Below, in pieces: positions 33,009 through 56,221 of a stretch of 64,000 bases of DNA. A model generated the notes under the pieces. It had not been told where the DNA came from, did no database searches, and saw only the letters and a list, made by a program, of their open reading frames with translations. Position 1 is the stretch's first letter; each line of letters starts with the position of its first letter. The position numbers were made by a program, and so were the translations under genes. The stretch comes from an uncultured bacterium (GTDB lineage Bacteria; Patescibacteriota; Minisyncoccia; Phycocordibacterales; UBA11359), in assembly GCA_903831815.1 (NCBI GenBank), contig CAIKZC010000001.1:85037-149036 (forward strand), written 5' to 3'.

Positions 33009-35552
33009 TTATAGAGGAGAAATTCCGAAGCCGGCGCCGAGGTAGTTGACGATATTTCGAGCTTCAAGTTCCGGGCGCCACGTAGCTTGCGATTGCAATC
33101 TCTCGGCGCCGATAAGTGAACTTAAAGTAGCTGATCCACCAATTGAAGCGCTGTAACTTTCGACGGTGCGAGAAACATCAGGGAAAGTAACCGCTTGTGA
33201 CACCGCACCAGTTTCTTTAGAAAGAGTCAGCCAATTGGTAAATGATTTTGGTGCATCCTGAATCATGAACCAATTTGATGCTGCGGCATTAGTGTAATAT
33301 GTGTTGTTGCTGAATGTTGCTCTAGCGGTTGACAATACTCCTTCAGAAGATACGGATGGAGATTGATAAAGCTTATCCTGGAATTTATTTCCAATAACTT
33401 GAATGTTTGTGAGTGGTCCGGCACTCAGCCCCACGAAACCTTGATTCCAATTGTAGAGAACGTTGTTTGAAATGGTGACATTCTGACTGGCCACAATACT
33501 TTCCAATCTGATACCGAAACTTGTTCCATTATTTGGTTTGTTTAGAAGCAAGTTGTTTGTAATGAGACCGCCATTGATACTTCCTAGATCAATTCCATAA
33601 CTTTGATCGGCTCCACCCAGCACTCTTCCTGTTTCAGTTAGCACATTATTCCGAATTGTGGCATCAATTGCACCATACTGAACCGAGGCTCCTTCTCCGG
33701 TTTTTGCGCCAACCGACATACTATTGCCGTTTGCGGCGAGAAGATTATTTTCGATCAGAACATGATTGGTTAGATTAGCGCCATTTTCGCTTCGCACCAA
33801 TATACCCTCACTTGAGGCATTAGAAATAATGTTATTTCTAATCGTGAGGTTCGTCATGTCATCCAGATACATATTGTGACTACGATCATCAGGCACTTGG
33901 AAACCGGTTTTCCAACCATTATGATCGATCACGTTAAATTCAATCAACATACCGTCAGCCGTTGAAGCAAAAATACCTTGCGATTTTGGTCCTCCAGCAT
34001 TGTAAGCATCAAGAATTCTGGAGCCGCGAATTGTGACGTGACTTGGACCTTTAGATGCATTTAGAGATGTGTCAGGTTCAGCTACAAAGTTATCAATAAA
34101 TCCTTCAATCGTACAATTTTCAACTAAGAAATTATTGCCCGAACCGTAAATGAAGATTCCTGTACCGTTTCCTTGACCTACGAGATGAAGTCCGACCATC
34201 GCAACGTTACTGGTGTTAAGTCCGTAAAAGTTTATGCCATTGTTATCCGCCGTTTCCGAAATAATCGGCTGTGCTCCGGTGCCGTAACTTGAAATTAACA
34301 TTTGCGCTGTAGCCAGTCCGGATTTTCGCCAACTGAAACTTTCATTTGTCCATGTGTCCCCTGCTTTGAGAAGCAACCAGTCCGGATAACCGTCACGAAT
34401 TAAAGAATATCCTTTGGCCAGTGTTTTTACCGGATGAGCTGAATCAAGGCCGGTATTGCTATCATTTCCTCCCGAACTACTGACATAGATTTTCTGAGTA
34501 TTGGCAGCGGCAGTGAAAGTTGTCCAGGTTACAGCGCCAGTTGAAGTTGGTGGCGGAACAACTGGTGGCGGAACAACCGGAGGAGCATACGTGCAAGATT
34601 GAGAGGTGACAGGTGTTCCTGTGCAACCAGCTGGAGCTGAAGTATATGTTCTGGTCTGTGTGTTATTTGACTGACAATCACTCCAAGCACCGTAAGTGTA
34701 TGTGCAAGCCTGTACCGGCGGAACATAAGTACAAGATTGTGACGTCACCGGAGTGCCCGTGCAACCCGTTGGAGTTGACGAAGCGACCGTACGAGTTTGA
34801 GTACTGTTTGATGCACAAGTTCCCCATGCACTGTAAGTATAAGTACAAGCTGAAGGAGGAGTAGTTGTCGAAGATTGATAATCAAAAACCACATCAACCC
34901 AATAATTTCGATTATTCCAAGTACTGGTCGGGAAAGTGTTTATATTGTAAACATAAACTCCGTTAGGTCCATTTTTTGTATTACTTGCCAGAGCGCGAAT
35001 AACTCCATTTTTATGAACAGTGCTGAAATAATTAGAATTTACGGCATAGAAACCGTTTGATGTAGAATACGAAGCGATATAAGGAGTATTGGCGGCAATT
35101 GCTATAGGCGTAGAGAAATTGGCGCTTTGCCATCCGGAAGCAGTTTCATTGATAAAAGTTACTGATCCAAGGAGAGCTCCTGTTGTTGTCCAAAGATGAC
35201 CGACGTGAGTGCCGGTATCACCCGGAATTTTATAAAATTGAATTTGTCTGATGTTTCCCGGGACATCGGTGCGAATTCTGACACCCAACTCAACCGGTTT
35301 ACCTGAACCAGTCTCGGAAGGTTTAACCGTATTGTCCCAAAGCTCAGCGGTACTTATCACAGGAGCAGGCGCGCTCTGTGTATTTGTGACCAAAGTCTCC
35401 GTTTGAGGAGTAACTCCATAGAACAAAGCGGCTGTCTGTTCTTGTAAGGCCGGAATTCCGGTATACAGTACATATGCAGCTATAGATATTACGAGCAAAA
35501 CGAAAACCCAGAGAAGAAGACGTTTCATATATTTATTTAAAAAAACGAGCAT
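33009..35552 (-). CDS. Large cell-surface protein: N-terminal TM anchor, two tandem Cys-rich 47-aa repeats, PPVVPPP linker, and right-handed parallel beta-helix (pectin-lyase-fold) repeats
   Basis: 847 aa. Repeated (I/V)xNN(L/V/I) beta-helix rungs (IRNNIISNA, IENNLLAANG, IRNNVLTETG, ITNNLLLNK, ISNNVLYNW). Two 141-nt tandem DNA repeats at about 34570-34850. Confidence 0.65.
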   Translation of the reverse strand: MLVFLNKYMKRLLLWVFVLLVISIAAYVLYTGIPALQEQTAALFYGVTPQTETLVTNTQSAPAPVISTAELWDNTVKPSETGSGKPVELGVRIRTDVPGNIRQIQFYKIPGDTGTHVGHLWTTTGALLGSVTFINETASGWQSANFSTPIAIAANTPYIASYSTSNGFYAVNSNYFSTVHKNGVIRALASNTKNGPNGVYVYNINTFPTSTWNNRNYWVDVVFDYQSSTTTPPSACTYTYSAWGTCASNSTQTRTVASSTPTGCTGTPVTSQSCTYVPPVQACTYTYGAWSDCQSNNTQTRTYTSAPAGCTGTPVTSQSCTYAPPVVPPPVVPPPTSTGAVTWTTFTAAANTQKIYVSSSGGNDSNTGLDSAHPVKTLAKGYSLIRDGYPDWLLLKAGDTWTNESFSWRKSGLATAQMLISSYGTGAQPIISETADNNGINFYGLNTSNVAMVGLHLVGQGNGTGIFIYGSGNNFLVENCTIEGFIDNFVAEPDTSLNASKGPSHVTIRGSRILDAYNAGGPKSQGIFASTADGMLIEFNVIDHNGWKTGFQVPDDRSHNMYLDDMTNLTIRNNIISNASSEGILVRSENGANLTNHVLIENNLLAANGNSMSVGAKTGEGASVQYGAIDATIRNNVLTETGRVLGGADQSYGIDLGSINGGLITNNLLLNKPNNGTSFGIRLESIVASQNVTISNNVLYNWNQGFVGLSAGPLTNIQVIGNKFQDKLYQSPSVSSEGVLSTARATFSNNTYYTNAAASNWFMIQDAPKSFTNWLTLSKETGAVSQAVTFPDVSRTVESYSASIGGSATLSSLIGAERLQSQATWRPELEARNIVNYLGAGFGISPL

Positions 35553-36390: not shown

Positions 36391-37038
36391 CTATTCATGA
36401 AATCCAATTTTTTCTTTTTTCGGTTCTTCCGGTTCCTCCAGTACCGGTTTCTTCAGCCGTTCTAATGATTCCACGGATTCCGCCAGTTTCTCTATAACAC
36501 CAAACACGATTTGAAAATTTTCGCCATATTTTTTCTCCAAATCATCCAGGCGATGAGCGAGTTCGCTATTCAGAGACAAAATCTGGCGCAATTTCACAAA
36601 AGTTTTAATGATGGCAATGCTCATGGCCACTGCCCGCGGGCTATTAAGCACCGTAGCGGCCATAAGCGCACCGTGTTCGGTAAAGGCGTAGGGTAAGAAA
36701 CGACGTTTGCTAAAATTTGCGGTTCCAAATTGGAACCGCAAATTTTGACCCTTTTTCAAGGTCGCAATTTGCGACCTTGAAACCTGATCTTCGTTCAAGG
36801 TTCCAATTTGGAACCTTGAACGAAGATACTCTGCTTCACTTTTTGTAAGCTGAAACATAAATTCTGCAGGAAAACGATCAATATTACGTTGTACCGCCTT
36901 ATTTAAATTCTTTGTCTTTACTCCATACAAACTCGCCAAATCACTGTCCAAAATCACCTTTTGATTACGAATAATTAAAATTATCTGCTCCACCCTCTCC
37001 TCCGGCGCAAGACCCACGCCATTGATATTTTTGTTCAT
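36391..37038 (-). CDS. ORF6N-domain (KilA-N-like) protein, paralog 1, with an in-frame roughly 120-nt palindromic expansion
   Basis: ...IRNQKVILDSDLASLYGVKTKNLNKAVQRNIDRFPAEFMFQLT...RFLPYAFTEHGALMAA... is the ORF6N signature. It carries an extra segment QIGTLNEDQVSRSQIATLKKGQNLRFQFGTANFSK relative to paralog 2 (55468-55974). Confidence 0.75.
   Translation of the reverse strand: MNKNINGVGLAPEERVEQIILIIRNQKVILDSDLASLYGVKTKNLNKAVQRNIDRFPAEFMFQLTKSEAEYLRSRFQIGTLNEDQVSRSQIATLKKGQNLRFQFGTANFSKRRFLPYAFTEHGALMAATVLNSPRAVAMSIAIIKTFVKLRQILSLNSELAHRLDDLEKKYGENFQIVFGVIEKLAESVESLERLKKPVLEEPEEPKKEKIGFHE
36710..36827. repeat. Three consecutive long palindromes (35, 29 and 41 nt) inside the ORF6N paralog-1 CDS
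   Basis: aaaatttgcGGTTCCaaattGGAACCgcaaatttt; tttcaaGGTCGCAAtttGCGACCttgaaa; atcttcgttcaaGGTTCCAAtttGGAACCttgaacgaagat. Confidence 0.8.
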
Positions 37039-51292: not shown

Positions 51293-51721
51293 ATAATAAT
51301 AATTAATAAGCTAAAGCTTTTTTTGACGTCACTCGGACGGATATGAGAATAAGACTCTCATATCCGTCCTCATTAGTCAAAATAAAAAAGGGCGTTGACC
51401 CTACTAATAAGTACCCGTGATTGTAGCGTAAAAGGTTGAAAGTGTAAAGAAAACGGATCCCCGAATCAATTACCTGCTATAATAATCCCAGATTGGTTAT
51501 ATTGAACGGTTACGGCTTTTCAAGACCTTTTGGACTCATGCATATTGAGAGCGCGGACGGTTACGGCTTTCCACGGAGGATATGCATGGTAGTCAACAAA
51601 AAAGAAAATACTTGGTGCGACGTGTTGGTTGATTTTTGATCACATATAAAATACAGTCCGGTCTCTTCCATTTTTTTTGGACTAGATGGACAGTGGAATA
51701 GATGACACGTCGCACAACACC

Positions 51722-51846
51722 GACTCTAACGGCAACCCGAACGTTTTCAATCTCGAACACAACGATGATGGTTTGTGGCTGAACAACAATTGGGCGAAAC
51801 CCGACAATGAGTGGAATCCGAACAACAAGTTCGCGTTCCGTCTCCG
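51722..51846 (+). repeat. DGR template repeat (TR), 125 nt
   Basis: Aligns with VR 53314-53438 (minus strand) with about 27 mismatches, all at TR adenines, plus one synonymous G/A. Followed by hairpin CCGCGAttttacaagTCGCGG at 51862-51882. Confidence 0.85.
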
Positions 51847-51868
51847 AAACTGTTTTCTTTCCGCGATT

Positions 51869-52216
51869 TTACAAGTCGCGGTTTTTCTTTTCTGGATTTA
51901 CCAGACTTTTCTTCCAACCACCAAGCATTTTGCCAACATCTTCAAGTTTCAGGGCAACATCTTCATATTGTTTGTCAGAAATGAGCTTACCCTCCCACGC
52001 AACCGAAATCAGAAACTTCAAGGTATCCAGAATCAAAATACATTTTGAAATCTTTTCCAATTTCTTTTCTTTTTCTGTAAAATAAGCAATATAAGCCCAA
52101 TCGAGCAAATCAAGAAATTTATTTTCAATTCGAGAGCCAATAGTATAACGAGACCCTTTAGCAATATGAGGAACAATGTTAACCCAAACCAAATACCCCT
52201 CTTTGATTCTATTCAA
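51869..52216 (-). CDS. avd: DGR accessory variability determinant (Avd, four-helix-bundle family)
   Basis: 115 aa. C-terminal ...LKLEDVGKMLGGWKKSL and N-terminal YLVWVNIVPHIAKGSRYTIG match the bAvd/four-helix-bundle family pattern. On the strand opposite to the RT, overlapping the RT ORF 5-prime end. Confidence 0.65.
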   Translation of the reverse strand: MNRIKEGYLVWVNIVPHIAKGSRYTIGSRIENKFLDLLDWAYIAYFTEKEKKLEKISKCILILDTLKFLISVAWEGKLISDKQYEDVALKLEDVGKMLGGWKKSLVNPEKKNRDL

Positions 52217-53285
52217 AATCGAGGCGTTATCGAGAGAGAGAGAGAGAGAGAGTAAACTGCGGTTTGGTCATATCTATGATGATATCATTTCTATTAAAAA
52301 CTTGCTCATAGCATGGCGCGAATTTTTGCGCAACAAACGCGACCGAAAAGATGTCGAAAGATTTTCACTTCATTTAATGGATAACGTGTTAGCGCTTCAC
52401 CGTGAACTTATAAACAAAACTTACCATCACGGACACTATAAAGCTTTCAAAATCAATGATCCAAAACCCCGTGACATTCACAAAGCGAGTGTTCGGGATC
52501 GACTTTTACACCACGCAATTTACCGAATTTTATATCCATATTTTGATCCTAAATTTATTTTTGATTCGTACTCCTGTCGAAATGTTAAAGGCACGCATCG
52601 TGCCGTAAATCGTTTTCGTAAATATGCTCGCAAAGTTTCAAAAAACCACACCCGAACTGTTTGGATTTTAAAATGTGATATCAGAAAATTTTTTGCCAAT
52701 ATTGATCACAAAATTTTACTAGATATTTTAAAACGACGCATGAGTAATAAAGACACTGTTTGGTTACTAAATGAAGTTATTAAAAGTTTTAACACTAAAA
52801 ATAAATCGGATGTTGGTTTGCCGCTAGGCAATCTTACCAGCCAACTTCTTGTGAATATATACATGAATGAATTTGATCATTTTATCAAACGAAATTTGAA
52901 AATTGCTTATTATGCCAGATATGCAGATGATTTTATTGTTTTGCACGAAAACAAAGAATATCTCAAGGGTATTCTGCCAACAATATCAGAATTTCTAGAA
53001 ACACACCTAAAATTATCACTCCATCCAAACAAAGTTTCCATAAAAACAATTTCTTCTGGAGTCGATTTTTTAGGCTGGGTCAGTTTTCCACACCACAGAG
53101 TTTTACGCAACTCTACAAAAAAGAGGATGTTCAGAAACTTAAATCGAGATCCGAAAAAAGAATCTTTGGCCTCTTATCAAGGACTCTTAAGTCGCGGCGA
53201 TACACATAAATTGAAACAAATGATATCAGAAAAATATTTCGAAAAGAATCAAAGAAACCAAGAGCCAAAGGTTCAGAAAAATTAA
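52176..53285 (+). CDS. DGR reverse transcriptase; true start uncertain (may lie downstream of the (GA)10 tract)
   Basis: RT motifs: LKCDIRKFFANIDHKIL (motif 2), GLPLGNLTSQLLVNIYMNEFD (motif 4/B), YARYADDFIV (YxDD catalytic), LHPNK...GWV. Confidence 0.85.
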   Translation: MLTQTKYPSLILFKIEALSRERERESKLRFGHIYDDIISIKNLLIAWREFLRNKRDRKDVERFSLHLMDNVLALHRELINKTYHHGHYKAFKINDPKPRDIHKASVRDRLLHHAIYRILYPYFDPKFIFDSYSCRNVKGTHRAVNRFRKYARKVSKNHTRTVWILKCDIRKFFANIDHKILLDILKRRMSNKDTVWLLNEVIKSFNTKNKSDVGLPLGNLTSQLLVNIYMNEFDHFIKRNLKIAYYARYADDFIVLHENKEYLKGILPTISEFLETHLKLSLHPNKVSIKTISSGVDFLGWVSFPHHRVLRNSTKKRMFRNLNRDPKKESLASYQGLLSRGDTHKLKQMISEKYFEKNQRNQEPKVQKN

Positions 53286-53297
53286 GAGTAAAAGACT

Positions 53298-55142
53298 CTA
53301 AGTTTTAGACTTGCGGAGACGGAACGCGAACTCGTAGCCCGGATCCCACCCAAAGCCGGGCATCGCCCAAGCGCTGTACAGCCATAAACCAACACCGCGG
53401 CGTTCGAGATTGAAAACGCACGGGCTGCCGTCAGAGTCGGAGATTTGTTTCATACCAACAACAAACCAGTCACCTAAAGGCTGATTTTTATATTGCAGAC
53501 GATAATTAGGTCCTGTATCGGCGGGACACAATTCCAACCCAAGGGCTTGTGCTCGTTCATAAATTTGATCAGTTGTGGCGTTTGTTTTGAAACCAAGATC
53601 AGCAACCGTTAAACGAATCAGTGTGGCAGTTTCAATATTTTTGCCAGTCACAAATTCACGACTTTTGAGCATAAATTCGACATTATCAGAAATTTTTATG
53701 CCATCTTTTTTCAATTCACTTAATAAGTGTTCACCAGTTTTGCCTCCTATCTCAACACTTTCTCGGCTAATTTTCTTTTCCGGAAAGGAAGTGTAAACGT
53801 GTTCAAGATTGTCTGGTAGTTTTTGGAAAATACCGGGTTCGAGTTGTCCGACATATACCTTGGTGTTTTCATTTATTTGACTTGGAACGTGTGCAATCTG
53901 TTCTTTTGTGCACTCAAAGATAACCAACACGTCTTCTTCAACATTTCTATTGGTTCGTAATTCGACAATACGTGGGTCACGTTCGTAACCAAAACCTTCA
54001 ATCGGTGTGTTAATTTCGTAGAGAAAAATCAAATCATCTTTGGTAAAGGCTTCGCCTTTTTCGTGTTTTTGATCCAAAGCAGTAAGCTTTTTCATGTCCT
54101 CACTTTTTTTGCGATACGCATCGGCTTCCGTGCCAAATTCTGCAAGCTTAGTATCCAATACCTCCTGAAAAATTGGTTCAACATCTTGATGGGGTAGAAG
54201 CCCGCGGATTTGACCGATTTGGTTGCCAGTCATTTGGATTGCGAGGCGTGGCTGAGTGGGATTGCCGTCATTGTCGTAAGTATAATAAACATAAAAATCT
54301 CCTTGCTTGTTGTAGCTGTGCGCAGTTGCCTTGCCTTCAATACACCAACCAGCTCCACCTGTCTTCCCTTCCACAGATTGCCATAGTCTATCAGCATCAT
54401 TAGAATTGTTAGCTTCATATTTTATCCACGTTCCTTGTATTTCTTCCTTATTTTCGATTTTGGAAGCCAGAGAGCCGGCAATAAAATCGGCATATAGAGC
54501 TGGAAATTTCTTGGAAAAATTTTCTCGTATTTCCAGGTCTTTCAGATTTTTGTTGTCATTTTTAACTTTTTCGTAAATATCAAGTATTTTTGCCAACGCA
54601 GCTCGGTTGATATCAGGGAAACGACCCACGGTTGATTCGGTACGAGACTTGAACTTACCTAGTTCTTTGTCGAATTGCGAAAGCTTAATTACCTGATTCC
54701 AAACGTAGTATTTAAACCAAGCAGGGTAAGCAACGTCTTCTTTAGTGAGATAATCCATCCATGTATCGAGAGAGTGCTTCTGATCTTCAATTGCTACATC
54801 CATCATCTGCTCGCGCACGTTTTCAGGAATTACTTCTACAGGTTGCCCACGTTCTCGTGCGATACGTTGCTGAAGTTCAAAATAGCTTTCGGGGAAATTA
54901 TCACGCTTGATTAGCAACGCGTCATATATTTTGTCGCGAAACATTTCAATGTTACGTTCACGTTTTTCTGTATCCGGATTGAGAAAAATATTTTCCAGTC
55001 TATCCATATATGCTTCTATTCTTGCGGTTGGATCATTAGGAACACTTTCACCGGTTCGTTGTTCCTGACGTTCTACTGCACGTTGCACCTCAGGTGAGGT
55101 TTGCAATTCTGGGTTTTTGATATGAAGCGGAAATTTTTCCAT
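53298..55142 (-). CDS. DGR target protein (614 aa) with the variable repeat in its C-terminal 40 aa
   Basis: C-terminus ...SPCVFNLERRGVGLWLYSAWAMPGFGWDPGYEFAFRLRKS is the diversified counterpart of TR-encoded ...NVFNLEHNDDGLWLNNNWAKPDNEWNPNNKFAFRLRN (Asn AAC codons in TR). VR 53314-53438. Confidence 0.8.
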   Translation of the reverse strand: MEKFPLHIKNPELQTSPEVQRAVERQEQRTGESVPNDPTARIEAYMDRLENIFLNPDTEKRERNIEMFRDKIYDALLIKRDNFPESYFELQQRIARERGQPVEVIPENVREQMMDVAIEDQKHSLDTWMDYLTKEDVAYPAWFKYYVWNQVIKLSQFDKELGKFKSRTESTVGRFPDINRAALAKILDIYEKVKNDNKNLKDLEIRENFSKKFPALYADFIAGSLASKIENKEEIQGTWIKYEANNSNDADRLWQSVEGKTGGAGWCIEGKATAHSYNKQGDFYVYYTYDNDGNPTQPRLAIQMTGNQIGQIRGLLPHQDVEPIFQEVLDTKLAEFGTEADAYRKKSEDMKKLTALDQKHEKGEAFTKDDLIFLYEINTPIEGFGYERDPRIVELRTNRNVEEDVLVIFECTKEQIAHVPSQINENTKVYVGQLEPGIFQKLPDNLEHVYTSFPEKKISRESVEIGGKTGEHLLSELKKDGIKISDNVEFMLKSREFVTGKNIETATLIRLTVADLGFKTNATTDQIYERAQALGLELCPADTGPNYRLQYKNQPLGDWFVVGMKQISDSDGSPCVFNLERRGVGLWLYSAWAMPGFGWDPGYEFAFRLRKSKT

Positions 55143-55143
55143 A

Positions 55144-55365
55144 TTATTTTATTTTCTTAGCAAGCTCACGCAAGTCACCATAAAGAACTTTTCCTTCTCC
55201 TAACTCGCTTTCGGCTTGGAGAACAGCATTAACCGCCTCGTCCTCAGCAAAATGATCGAGAGCTTTGTGTACAACTTCAACTTTGTTATTTGCATTTCCA
55301 GCTTTTATATAGGCCGCAATAAAGGCTTCTTGTTTTGCGGTAATTGATATTGATAACGTAGTCAT
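55144..55365 (-). CDS. Ribbon-helix-helix (ParD/CopG-like) small protein, translationally coupled (TAAtATG) to the DGR target
   Basis: 73 aa. TLSISITAKQEAFIAAYIKAGNANNKVEVVHKALDHF aligns with ParD-family antitoxin ...[33 protein letters not shown]. Confidence 0.5.
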   Translation of the reverse strand: MTTLSISITAKQEAFIAAYIKAGNANNKVEVVHKALDHFAEDEAVNAVLQAESELGEGKVLYGDLRELAKKIK

Positions 55366-55414
55366 ATATTTTTATAGTATTGCCACATTATACTATAATA
55401 CGCCGTAAATAATA

Positions 55415-55445
55415 CAGGAAATCTTGAGGTCGCAATTTGCGACCT
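55415..55445. promoter_or_regulatory. 30-nt perfect palindrome ATCTTGAGGTCGCAATTTGCGACCTCAAGAT between ORF6N-2 and the RHH gene (terminator and/or operator)
   Basis: Core GGTCGCAATTTGCGACC is identical to the core of the 36752-36780 palindrome. TATAAT at about 55388 (minus strand) lies downstream of it. Confidence 0.5.
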
Positions 55446-55467
55446 CAAGATTTACTAACAAGCTATT

Positions 55468-55974
55468 TTACCCATGAAAACCAATTCTCGGTTTTTCCTT
55501 CTCTTTTGGTTGAATTGGAGGTTCCATAAGTTGTTTTATAGCTCGAAAAACAACTTGAAAATGTTGATCGTATTTTTTCTCCAACTCATCCAATCGACGA
55601 ACCAAGTCTTTGTTAACAGAAAGAATTTGGCGCAATTTTATAAAAGTCCTTACTATTGCCACACTCATAACAATAGCTTGTGGACTGTTTAATACGTTAG
55701 CCGCCATCAATGCACCATGCTCAGTAAATGCATATGGCAAGTAACGACGCCCGCCATAACTTGAGGTCACAAATTGTGACCTCAAGTTTTGCACTTCTTC
55801 CAAACTCAACTGAAACATAAAATCTTCAGGAAAACGATCAGGATTCCTTTTAACTGCCTGATTTAAAACCTTTGTCTCCACACCATACAAATTTGCCAAA
55901 TCCCTGTCCAAAATCACCTTTTGATTACGAATAATTAAAATTGCCTGTTCTACCCTCTCCAGTTTTTTATTCAT
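55468..55974 (-). CDS. ORF6N-domain (KilA-N-like) protein, paralog 2
   Basis: ...IRNQKVILDRDLANLYGVETKVLNQAVKRNPDRFPEDFMFQLS...LRSQFVTSSYGGRRYLPYAFTEHGALMAANVL. The LRSQFVTSS motif is encoded by the 27-nt perfect palindrome CTTGAGGTCACAAATTGTGACCTCAAG (55769-55795). Confidence 0.8.
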   Translation of the reverse strand: MNKKLERVEQAILIIRNQKVILDRDLANLYGVETKVLNQAVKRNPDRFPEDFMFQLSLEEVQNLRSQFVTSSYGGRRYLPYAFTEHGALMAANVLNSPQAIVMSVAIVRTFIKLRQILSVNKDLVRRLDELEKKYDQHFQVVFRAIKQLMEPPIQPKEKEKPRIGFHG

Positions 55975-56149: not shown

Positions 56150-56221
56150 AGCATTTACATACAAAACAAAAAACCACCGAGCGGTGGTTTTTTGTTTTGT
56201 ATTTATGTTTTTGCTTTCAGA

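What the first reader, a model, noticed from the sequence alone, without database searches (positions are those of the whole stretch)
55142..55365. RHH/ParD-like gene translationally coupled to the DGR target
The 73-aa ribbon-helix-helix protein aligns with ParD-family antitoxins. Its stop overlaps the start of the 614-aa VR-bearing protein (TAAtATG). Either the DGR target doubles as a toxin-like partner of an antitoxin-type regulator, or the RHH protein is a dedicated transcriptional regulator of the diversified gene. Neither arrangement is a standard DGR component. A 30-nt palindrome (55415-55445) upstream could be its operator.
Basis: partly seen in the sequence, partly recalled or inferred. 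Interest (0 to 1): 0.5.

Follow-up and report, generated by a model that had tools for sequence, protein, structure and literature searches.

The report
Orphan antitoxin gene beside DGR target
The small gene is a leftover antitoxin from a toxin-antitoxin pair; its toxin gene has been displaced by a mutagenic retroelement (DGR) cassette, so its position next to the diversified gene is a one-off accident in one lineage, not a new DGR component.

Summary
The 73-aa ORF (55144-55365, minus strand) is real and belongs to a compact family of ParD-like ribbon-helix-helix antitoxins.

- **Usual partner.** In every relative with enough downstream DNA, it is followed at an ATGA overlap or TAAnATG junction by an 86-88 aa RelE/ParE/HigB-like toxin.
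- **This genome.** The toxin is absent from all 64 kb. The 614-aa DGR target starts where the toxin's start codon used to be.
- **Synteny.** Close relatives carry rpsG-ORF6N-RHH-X-fusA. X is a decayed toxin remnant (L114), a methyltransferase-like gene (L112/L113) or, here, the whole DGR cassette (target, RT, Avd, TR). A possible 9-nt toxin relic survives at the far junction.
- **Pairing not conserved.** None of 94 other target-family loci has an RHH gene abutting the target's start codon. Those targets normally carry their own leaderless-type -10 box, which is missing here.
- **Inferred mechanism.** The target is probably now transcribed from the old TA promoter. That promoter keeps one operator-like palindrome, so it may be repressed by the RHH protein. 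This step is not shown.
- **Large palindrome.** The 35-nt palindrome (55419-55453) lies outside the TA-promoter homology and looks like the terminator of the upstream ORF6N gene.
- **Toxin idea.** The reading that the target acts as a toxin partner is not supported.

The parts
55144..55365 (-). 73-aa ParD-like ribbon-helix-helix antitoxin gene, orphaned (no cognate toxin gene in the window)
   Evidence: ORF. Family-level ParD evidence. Model and fold hits. Relatives are paired with toxins. No toxin in the window.
55140..55146 (-). Junction TAA-T-ATG: RHH stop, one spacer base, then the start of the DGR target. It sits within 2 nt of where the toxin start lies in relatives.
   Evidence: L006 has the identical TAAtATG at its RHH-toxin junction. 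L014, L016 and L001 have an ATGA overlap. L114 and the window share AAAATAATA.
55366..55412 (-). Remnant TA promoter/operator region, colinear with the upstream regions of TA-intact relatives (ATTTACGnCnTATGATAgTATCATATGATAaTATCATA). A TACTAT -10-like box ends 8 nt before the ATG.
   Evidence: alignment A5.
55372..55399 (.). Operator-like symmetry: the 13-bp palindrome ATTATAgTATAAT (55387-55399) and the 9-bp inverted repeat TTATAGTAT/ATACTATAA (55372-55380 and 55390-55398). The first site is homologous to operator site 1 of relatives. Operator site 2 has decayed.
   Evidence: The exact operator TATGATAnTATCATA occurs only upstream of the RHH genes in relatives' loci. The window site has 3 mismatches.
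55419..55453 (-). 35-nt perfect hairpin (16-bp stem, 3-nt loop), 14 nt after the ORF6N stop. Probably the ORF6N terminator/insulator, not the RHH operator.
   Evidence: terminator-like. (dG -28.4 kcal/mol, z = -6.8). It lies outside the homology with TA promoters and is absent in L113/L114.
55468..55974 (-). ORF6N-domain gene, the conserved upstream neighbour of the toxin-less RHH copies (window, L113, L114)
   Evidence: PF10543, 5e-36..
53298..55142 (-). 614-aa DGR target gene, occupying the toxin's slot and lacking the family's usual leaderless -10 box
53311..53447 (-). Variable region (VR) at the 3' end of the target
   Evidence: 27 of 29 mismatches at TR adenines.
52176..53285 (+). DGR reverse transcriptase
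51869..52216 (-). Avd accessory protein gene
   Evidence: bAvd 2e-13; DivGenRetAVD 3e-16.
51713..51849 (+). Template region (TR)
51456..51464 (-). TCGGGGATC: a possible 9-nt relic of the toxin's 3' end (V-G-D-H codons), at the fusA-side junction of the DGR insertion
   Evidence: alignment with the L114 toxin remnant ...GTCGGGGATCACGATGTGTACAAGTAG. Coordinates. Short, so tentative.
51438..51452 (-). Start of the fusA promoter region, where synteny with L114 and L112 resumes. This marks the far boundary of the variable slot.

Best explanation
The 73-aa gene encodes a ParD-like ribbon-helix-helix antitoxin left over from a type II toxin-antitoxin (TA) module.

**Shown**
- In an ancestor of this clade, the module (RHH plus an 86-88 aa RelE/ParE/HigB-like toxin) sat with an ORF6N gene between rpsG and fusA.
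- The toxin has since been lost.
- In this genome the entire DGR cassette (target, RT, Avd, TR; about 51465-55142) occupies the toxin's place.
- The target's ATG lies within 2 nt of the former toxin start codon.
- The target has lost the leaderless-type extended -10 promoter that its homologues carry 6 nt upstream of their ATG.

**Inferred**
- The target is co-transcribed with RHH from the old TA promoter.
- It is translated by termination-reinitiation at TAA-T-ATG.
- Because that promoter keeps one operator-like palindrome overlapping its -10 region, the operon, and with it the DGR target, is probably repressed by RHH dimers in the way TA operons are autoregulated.

**Other conclusions**
- The target is not a toxin partner, and RHH is not a general DGR component.
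- The 35-nt hairpin upstream most likely terminates the ORF6N/str-operon transcript.
For: **RHH homologues are paired with a toxin.**
- Every RHH homologue context with enough downstream DNA carries the small toxin immediately after RHH: L003-5, L006-8, L014, L015, L016, L017 and the 36.9-kb contig that carries P0002.
- The toxins weakly match HigB-like, ParE-like, YafQ and RelE_StbE models.

**No toxin in the window.** tblastn, hmmsearch and phmmer all find none.

**Synteny**.
- L114 is ORF6N - RHH - toxin remnant - fusA. The remnant has ATG changed to ATA, internal deletions, a C-terminal LAVGDHDVYK stretch, and an HMM E-value of 5e-8.
- L112/L113 are ORF6N - RHH - 475 nt - methyltransferase-like gene - fusA.
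- Window homology with both stops at the RHH stop codon and resumes at 51452.
- TCGGGGATC at 51456-51464 matches the toxin's 3' end.

**The RHH upstream region is colinear with the TA promoters of relatives**. Their exact operator occurs only upstream of RHH genes.

**Target promoters.**
- 42 of 77 distinct target loci have TANNNT ending exactly 6 nt before the ATG, often as TGCTAAAGT.
- Only 3 of 77 have a Shine-Dalgarno-like sequence.
- The window has neither.

**The pairing is not conserved.**
- The RHH HMM finds no RHH gene abutting the target's start codon in 94 other target loci.
- Two loci (L101, L074) carry the complete RHH+toxin pair next to the target. L101 shows the intact co-oriented arrangement RHH-toxin-76 nt-target, with the target's own promoter.

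**The RHH gene looks intact.**
- Full length, with all family-invariant residues retained.
- dN/dS against other toxin-less copies is 0.15-0.20.

**The junction is reproduced** in five independent assemblies.
Against: - Co-transcription, translational coupling and repression are inferred only from spacing and homology. No expression data were available.
- The second operator site has decayed in the window, and the first differs from the relatives' consensus at three positions. A 3-mismatch match is not rare by chance (4 found, 2.9 expected).
- The other toxin-less copies (L113, L114) have lost the operator entirely, so autoregulation may not be maintained in this clade.
- dS is saturated (0.76-1.4), and the timing of toxin loss relative to the lineage splits is uncertain. 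Low dN/dS therefore does not prove selection after orphaning.
- An internal promoter for the target inside the RHH gene cannot be excluded.
- A cognate toxin could lie elsewhere in the genome, outside the window.
- The 9-nt toxin relic is short.
Confidence: 0.75

Rival explanations
1. RHH is a dedicated transcriptional regulator that evolved with the DGR target as an accessory DGR component.
For: - One-nucleotide spacing to the target.
- The target lacks its own promoter.
- Operator-like symmetry lies upstream of RHH.
Against: - None of 94 other target-family loci has an RHH gene abutting the target's start codon.
- All other sampled RHH family members sit with small toxins, or in the same rpsG-fusA slot with non-DGR cargo.
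- The family profile matches ParD antitoxins.
Confidence: 0.05
2. The DGR target acts as the toxin partner of the RHH antitoxin, forming a diversified toxin-antitoxin pair.
For: The target occupies the toxin's position with a TA-type junction.
Against: - The target family is about 70% conserved across more than 1,700 clusters, and no sampled locus has RHH abutting the target.
- It has no toxin domain in Pfam or NCBIfam and no fold match.
- A remnant of the real toxin is visible in L114.
Confidence: 0.02
3. RHH is a functionless relic on its way to decay. The target is expressed from a cryptic promoter within or after the RHH gene, and the adjacency has no regulatory consequence.
For: - Operator site 2 has decayed.
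- The sister toxin-less copies have lost the operator.
- The toxin slot is a hot spot with interchangeable cargo.
- TAAAAT and TGCTAAG-like strings occur in the 3' end of RHH.
Against: - The ORF is intact at full length with all invariant residues, including the C-terminal toxin-binding helix.
- dN/dS is 0.15-0.20 among toxin-less copies.
- The sequence is identical across five assemblies.
- No -10 box lies at the family's canonical distance from the target ATG.
Confidence: 0.15
4. RHH is retained as an antitoxin acting in trans. It would neutralise a homologous toxin encoded elsewhere in the genome or on invading elements (anti-addiction), regardless of its DGR neighbour.
For: - The C-terminal helix (LYGDLRELAKKIK) is fully conserved.
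- Orphan antitoxins with this role are established in TA biology (general knowledge, not tested here).
- The same TA family occurs in related community members from the same samples.
Against: No toxin homologue in the 64-kb window. The rest of the genome could not be examined.
Confidence: 0.15

Closest known systems
ParD antitoxins of ParDE-type type II TA modules (Caulobacter ParD1 3kxe, V. cholerae ParD2 7b22/7r5a, M. tuberculosis ParD1 8c24, P. rubra PrpA 7ycs)
   Same: - Size of about 70-80 aa.
- An N-terminal RHH followed by a C-terminal helix.
- Family profile similarity and best fold matches.
- In relatives, the gene precedes and overlaps a small RelE/ParE-superfamily toxin, and palindromic operators lie over the promoter.
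   Different: - The window copy has no toxin gene.
- The single sequence is below the Pfam and NCBIfam cut-offs.
- The partner toxins of relatives score best with HigB-like, ParE-like or RelE models, all below cut-off. The module is therefore a divergent ParD/RelE-superfamily pair, not a canonical ParDE.
Orphan (solitary) antitoxins left after toxin loss
   Same: - The antitoxin is kept intact while the toxin is deleted or decayed.
- L114 shows the decaying intermediate.
   Different: - The toxin's slot has been filled by a complete DGR cassette.
- The target gene is placed at the toxin's start codon and deprived of its own promoter.
Canonical DGR cassettes (Bordetella phage BPP-1 type: target, Avd, TR, RT)
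   Same: Target with a C-terminal VR, Avd, TR and RT, with adenine-specific TR/VR differences.
   Different: RHH is not part of any described DGR. No paper in the held library links DGR targets with antitoxins. The association is not conserved.

Membership tests
ParD-like RHH antitoxin (type II TA) | Ribbon-helix-helix fold (N-terminal strand, two helices) with a C-terminal toxin-binding extension | tested here: met
   - AF2 model: coil at 1-9, helices at 10-21, 28-55 and 64-72, pLDDT 73.
- The top 8 Foldseek PDB hits are all ParD antitoxins, with TM up to 0.84 and rmsd 1.2 A, though the E-values are not significant.
- The strand only forms in a dimer, which was not modelled.
ParD-like RHH antitoxin (type II TA) | Significant sequence match to ParD family models | tested here: inconclusive
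   - The window protein alone is below the cut-offs: Pfam 14.5 bits against 21, NCBIfam 26 against 46.2.
- At family level the feature is met. A 126-member profile hits 3kxe at 8e-6. 26 of 126 and 14 of 18 members hit ParD_antitoxin. The L101 member passes the Pfam cut-off.
ParD-like RHH antitoxin (type II TA) | Cognate toxin gene immediately downstream in the same operon | tested here: not met
   - Absent in the window.
- Present in all relatives with enough sequence.
- A remnant is present in L114.
- The window gene is therefore an orphaned member.
ParD-like RHH antitoxin (type II TA) | Palindromic operator over its own promoter (autoregulation) | tested here: inconclusive
   - Relatives have one or two TATGATAnTATCATA sites.
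- The window keeps a 13-bp palindrome at the homologous site, with symmetric G-to-T and C-to-A changes. The second site has decayed.
- DNA binding was not testable.
ParD-like RHH antitoxin (type II TA) | Neutralises its toxin by direct binding | not testable with these tools
   Needs co-expression or binding assays.
DGR accessory component | Conserved co-occurrence with DGR RT, TR or target across loci | tested here: not met
   - None of 94 target-family loci has an RHH gene abutting the target's start codon.
- Two have the complete TA pair nearby.
- RHH relatives occur in non-DGR contexts.
Intrinsic terminator (for the 55419-55453 palindrome) | Stable GC-containing hairpin just after a stop codon, followed by a U-tract | tested here: inconclusive
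   - The hairpin has a 16-bp stem, dG -28.4 kcal/mol and z = -6.8, and lies 14 nt after the ORF6N stop.
- It was picked up by the terminator scan.
- The U-tract is interrupted (UUUCCUGUAUUAUUU).

The most novel reading that the evidence does not exclude
TA modules, or their antitoxin/promoter halves, are recurrently recruited upstream of this Patescibacteria hypervariable-protein family. The window would show the end state, in which the toxin has been displaced and a ParD-like antitoxin with its operator now acts as the repressor of a DGR-diversified gene.

Support: 8 of the 11 toxin ORFs detected in 577 kb of target loci lie within about 320 nt upstream of the target ATG, and they come from at least four TA families.

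Caveat: the search seeds came from those adjacent toxins, so the count is biased. The pattern may simply reflect a shared insertion hot spot.
Probability: 0.15. Interest if true: 0.55.

Novelty: new member of a known kind. Interest (0 to 1): 0.3.

Why it matters
The result shows that RHH should not be added to the list of DGR components. The adjacency is explained by an ordinary process: a toxin was lost from a TA module in a variable slot between rpsG and fusA.

Three points are of modest interest:
- It documents gene replacement at single-nucleotide resolution. A DGR cassette lost its own promoter and captured a TA promoter and start site.
- If RHH does repress the operon, it would be an example of an orphan antitoxin re-used to control a hypermutable gene.
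- The recurrent presence of TA modules just upstream of this very conserved, uncharacterised Patescibacteria protein family may deserve a proper survey.

Tried and rejected
- **Toxin elsewhere in the window.** tblastn, hmmsearch and phmmer gave only noise, best E=0.008 over 16 aa.
- **Target as a toxin or known domain.** No Pfam or NCBIfam hit. The AF2 model has pLDDT 67.5 and no PDB fold match better than E=2.5. This was a dead end.
- **First structure job for the target.** It was redone with alignment A3.
- **Large palindrome as the RHH operator.** Rejected for three reasons:
  - It lies outside the promoter homology.
  - It is absent from L113 and L114.
  - It has terminator anatomy.
- **dN/dS as proof of function after orphaning.** The values are low (0.08-0.20), but dS is saturated and the timing of toxin loss is uncertain.
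- **ORF6N+RHH as a functional pair.** The second ORF6N paralogue (36391-37038) has no RHH next to it. TA-intact RHH relatives have other upstream neighbours.
- **Literature.** Searches for DGR plus antitoxin, and for DGR in the CPR, found no description of such a pairing.
- **Circular or tandem DGR intermediate.** I considered this because the cassette ends about 63 nt short of where the target promoter would follow in L020-type loci. I did not adopt it, because L021 shows the same gene order as an ordinary architecture.
Full report
**Observation.** The window holds an intact 73-aa ORF at 55144-55365 on the minus strand. Its stop TAA is followed by one T and then the ATG of the 614-aa ORF at 53298-55142. 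The two genes are adjacent, not overlapping.

The 614-aa gene is a genuine DGR target:
- A 137-nt inverted repeat links 51713-51849 (TR) to 53311-53447 (VR).
- 27 of the 29 TR/VR differences fall at TR adenines.
- An RT (52176-53285) and an Avd gene (51869-52216) are recognised by profile searches.

The RHH-target junction is 99.96-100% identical in five independently assembled contigs (contigs and samples). It is not an assembly artefact.

**What the 73-aa protein is.** On its own it gives only sub-threshold ParD hits: Pfam E=0.049 and NCBIfam TIGR02606 E=6.8e-6. At family level the assignment is solid.
- An exhaustive profile search finds 234 cluster representatives (E up to 0.001); the 150 best listed are small proteins, mostly about 70 aa.
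- A profile built from 126 of them hits solved ParD antitoxins: 3kxe 8e-6, 7ycs 1.8e-5, 7b22 9e-5, 8c24 9e-4.
- Of those 126 members, 31 match RHH_1 and 26 match ParD_antitoxin.
- The AF2 model has an extended N-terminus, helices at 10-21, 28-55 and 64-72, and pLDDT 73.
- Its best eight PDB fold matches are all ParD antitoxins, though the E-values are not significant for so small a protein.

**Its normal partner.** The word-index search found 18 homologue clusters. I looked up the genomic context of eight of them. Wherever enough downstream DNA exists, RHH is followed, at an ATGA overlap or a TAAnATG junction, by an 86-88 aa gene. An HMM of these proteins also recovers copies that the gene callers had missed in L005 and L017. 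The proteins match HigB-like, ParE-like, YafQ and RelE_StbE models weakly. They are therefore RelE/ParE-superfamily toxins.

Upstream of RHH, these relatives carry one or two copies of the palindrome TATGATAnTATCATA over a -10-like box. In the 114 loci fetched by then, that exact motif occurs only at those positions. The family is thus a conventional type II TA module.

**What happened in the window.** No toxin homologue exists anywhere in the 64 kb. Three close relatives explain why.
- **L114** (RHH 71% identical) reads ORF6N - RHH - toxin remnant - fusA. In the remnant the start ATG has become ATA, there are internal deletions, and the C-terminal LAVGDHDVYK stretch is still recognisable (HMM E=5e-8).
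- **L112/L113** (RHH 79% identical) read ORF6N - RHH - 475 nt - methyltransferase-like gene - fusA.
- **The window** reads rpsG - ORF6N - RHH - [target, RT, Avd, TR] - fusA.

Nucleotide homology between the window and these contigs stops at the RHH stop codon and resumes at 51452, the -35 region of the fusA promoter. Just inside that boundary, TCGGGGATC (51456-51464) matches the V-G-D-H codons at the toxin's 3' end in L114. This is a possible 9-nt relic.

The window and L114 also share AAAATAATA at the RHH stop, where the TA-intact relatives L001, L014 and L016 have AAAATGATA. That change removes the overlapping toxin ATG. The slot after RHH is therefore a variable site. In this lineage the DGR cassette replaced the toxin gene, and the target's ATG landed within 2 nt of the old toxin start.

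**Is the pairing conserved?** No. The target family is very large and conserved: more than 1,700 clusters, about 70% identical. I fetched 94 further loci, 14 from genomes and 80 from metagenomes. None has an RHH gene abutting the target's start codon. Two carry the complete RHH+toxin pair of this same family next to the target:
- L101, co-oriented: RHH, toxin, 76 nt, then the target with its own promoter. This is what the window's precursor could have looked like.
- L074, in divergent orientation.

**Consequence for expression (inferred).** In 42 of 77 distinct target loci, a TANNNT hexamer ends exactly 6 nt before the ATG. It is often the extended -10 box TGCTAAAGT. Only 3 of 77 loci have a Shine-Dalgarno-like sequence, so the family is normally expressed as a leaderless mRNA. 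The window lacks this box. The 3' end of RHH runs right up to the ATG.

The region upstream of RHH is colinear with the TA promoters of relatives. It keeps a TACTAT box 8 nt before the ATG, at the same distance as TATCAT in relatives. It also keeps a 13-bp palindrome, ATTATAgTATAAT, at the position of operator site 1, with symmetric G-to-T and C-to-A changes, and a 9-bp inverted repeat. Operator site 2 has decayed.

I therefore infer that the target is transcribed from the RHH promoter, translated by reinitiation at TAA-T-ATG, and possibly repressed by RHH. None of these steps is shown.

The RHH ORF is intact, with every family-invariant residue retained. dN/dS against the other toxin-less copies is 0.15-0.20. 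However, dS is saturated and the date of toxin loss is uncertain.

**The large palindrome.** It is a perfect 16-bp stem with a 3-nt loop at 55419-55453 (dG -28.4 kcal/mol, z = -6.8), 14 nt after the ORF6N stop codon. The terminator scan flagged it. It lies upstream of the stretch homologous to the TA promoters and is absent from L113 and L114. It is best read as the ORF6N terminator, insulating the RHH-target unit from the str operon. It is not the RHH operator.

**Comparison and verdict.** The protein works like, and is a divergent member of, the ParD-type RHH antitoxins. It fails one defining feature of a TA module, the presence of a toxin, so it is an orphan antitoxin. It is not a DGR component.
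- The regulator idea survives only in weakened form, as an accidental promoter capture in one lineage.
- I found no literature on DGR-antitoxin pairing.

Novelty: a new member of a known kind. Interest is low to moderate. The recurrent presence of TA modules just upstream of this protein family is the one pattern that might repay a proper survey.

Noticed in passing
Loci L022/L098, L028, L074, L079, L087, L101, L108 (and L086 downstream): TA modules of at least four families (ParE, YafQ/RelB, MazF/PemK, and the window's RHH/RelE-like family) lie within about 320 nt upstream of the target-family gene. They account for 8 of the 11 toxin ORFs detected in 577 kb of target loci. This holds both with and without an RT/Avd nearby. 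The search seeds came from these adjacent toxins, so the count is biased. The cause is unexplained.
   Followed up: partly
window 55143-55190 compared with L018-L111, the 45 nt upstream of each target ATG: The target family is normally leaderless. In 42 of 77 loci TANNNT ends exactly 6 nt before the ATG, often as TTTTTGCTAAAGT, and only 3 of 77 have a Shine-Dalgarno-like sequence.
   Followed up: yes
window 51453-55974; L112, L113, L114: The rpsG-fusA intergenic site of this clade holds an ORF6N-RHH island. A variable slot follows it, carrying different cargo in close relatives: a toxin remnant only, a methyltransferase-like gene, or the DGR cassette.
   Followed up: yes
window 53298-55142 and homologues P0019-P0138: The 613-aa target family is unusually conserved, at about 70% identity over more than 1,700 clusters across Patescibacteria. 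It has no Pfam or NCBIfam domain and no fold match. Only 41 of 94 loci show an RT or Avd in the fetched flanks, so many copies may not be DGR-linked.
   Followed up: partly
window 36391-37038 (-): A second, longer ORF6N-domain paralogue (215 aa), about 70% identical in DNA to the one beside RHH, with no RHH next to it. This repeat probably explains why short-read contigs break at ORF6N.
   Followed up: partly
window 51713-53285: DGR architecture: TR and RT lie on the plus strand, with avd between them on the minus strand. The 5' end of avd overlaps the RT start by 41 nt (52176-52216). The same TR / avd (opposite strand) / RT order recurs in L020, L021 and L028.
   Followed up: no
window 53311-53447; L009-L011: L009 and L011 span the VR and are 100% identical to the window. 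L010 spans it too and has a single mismatch somewhere in its 2,846 nt. The consensus sequences therefore show little or no ongoing diversification.
   Followed up: no
window 56159-56202: A 20-bp-stem hairpin flanked by A- and T-runs, terminator-like on both strands, lies between rpsG and the ORF6N gene.
   Followed up: no
window 33009-35552 (-): An 847-aa secreted-looking protein with tandem Cys-containing repeats (CTYTY.AW..C.SN.TQTRT...GCTG) followed by a beta-helix-like region. Seen in the ORF list.
   Followed up: no
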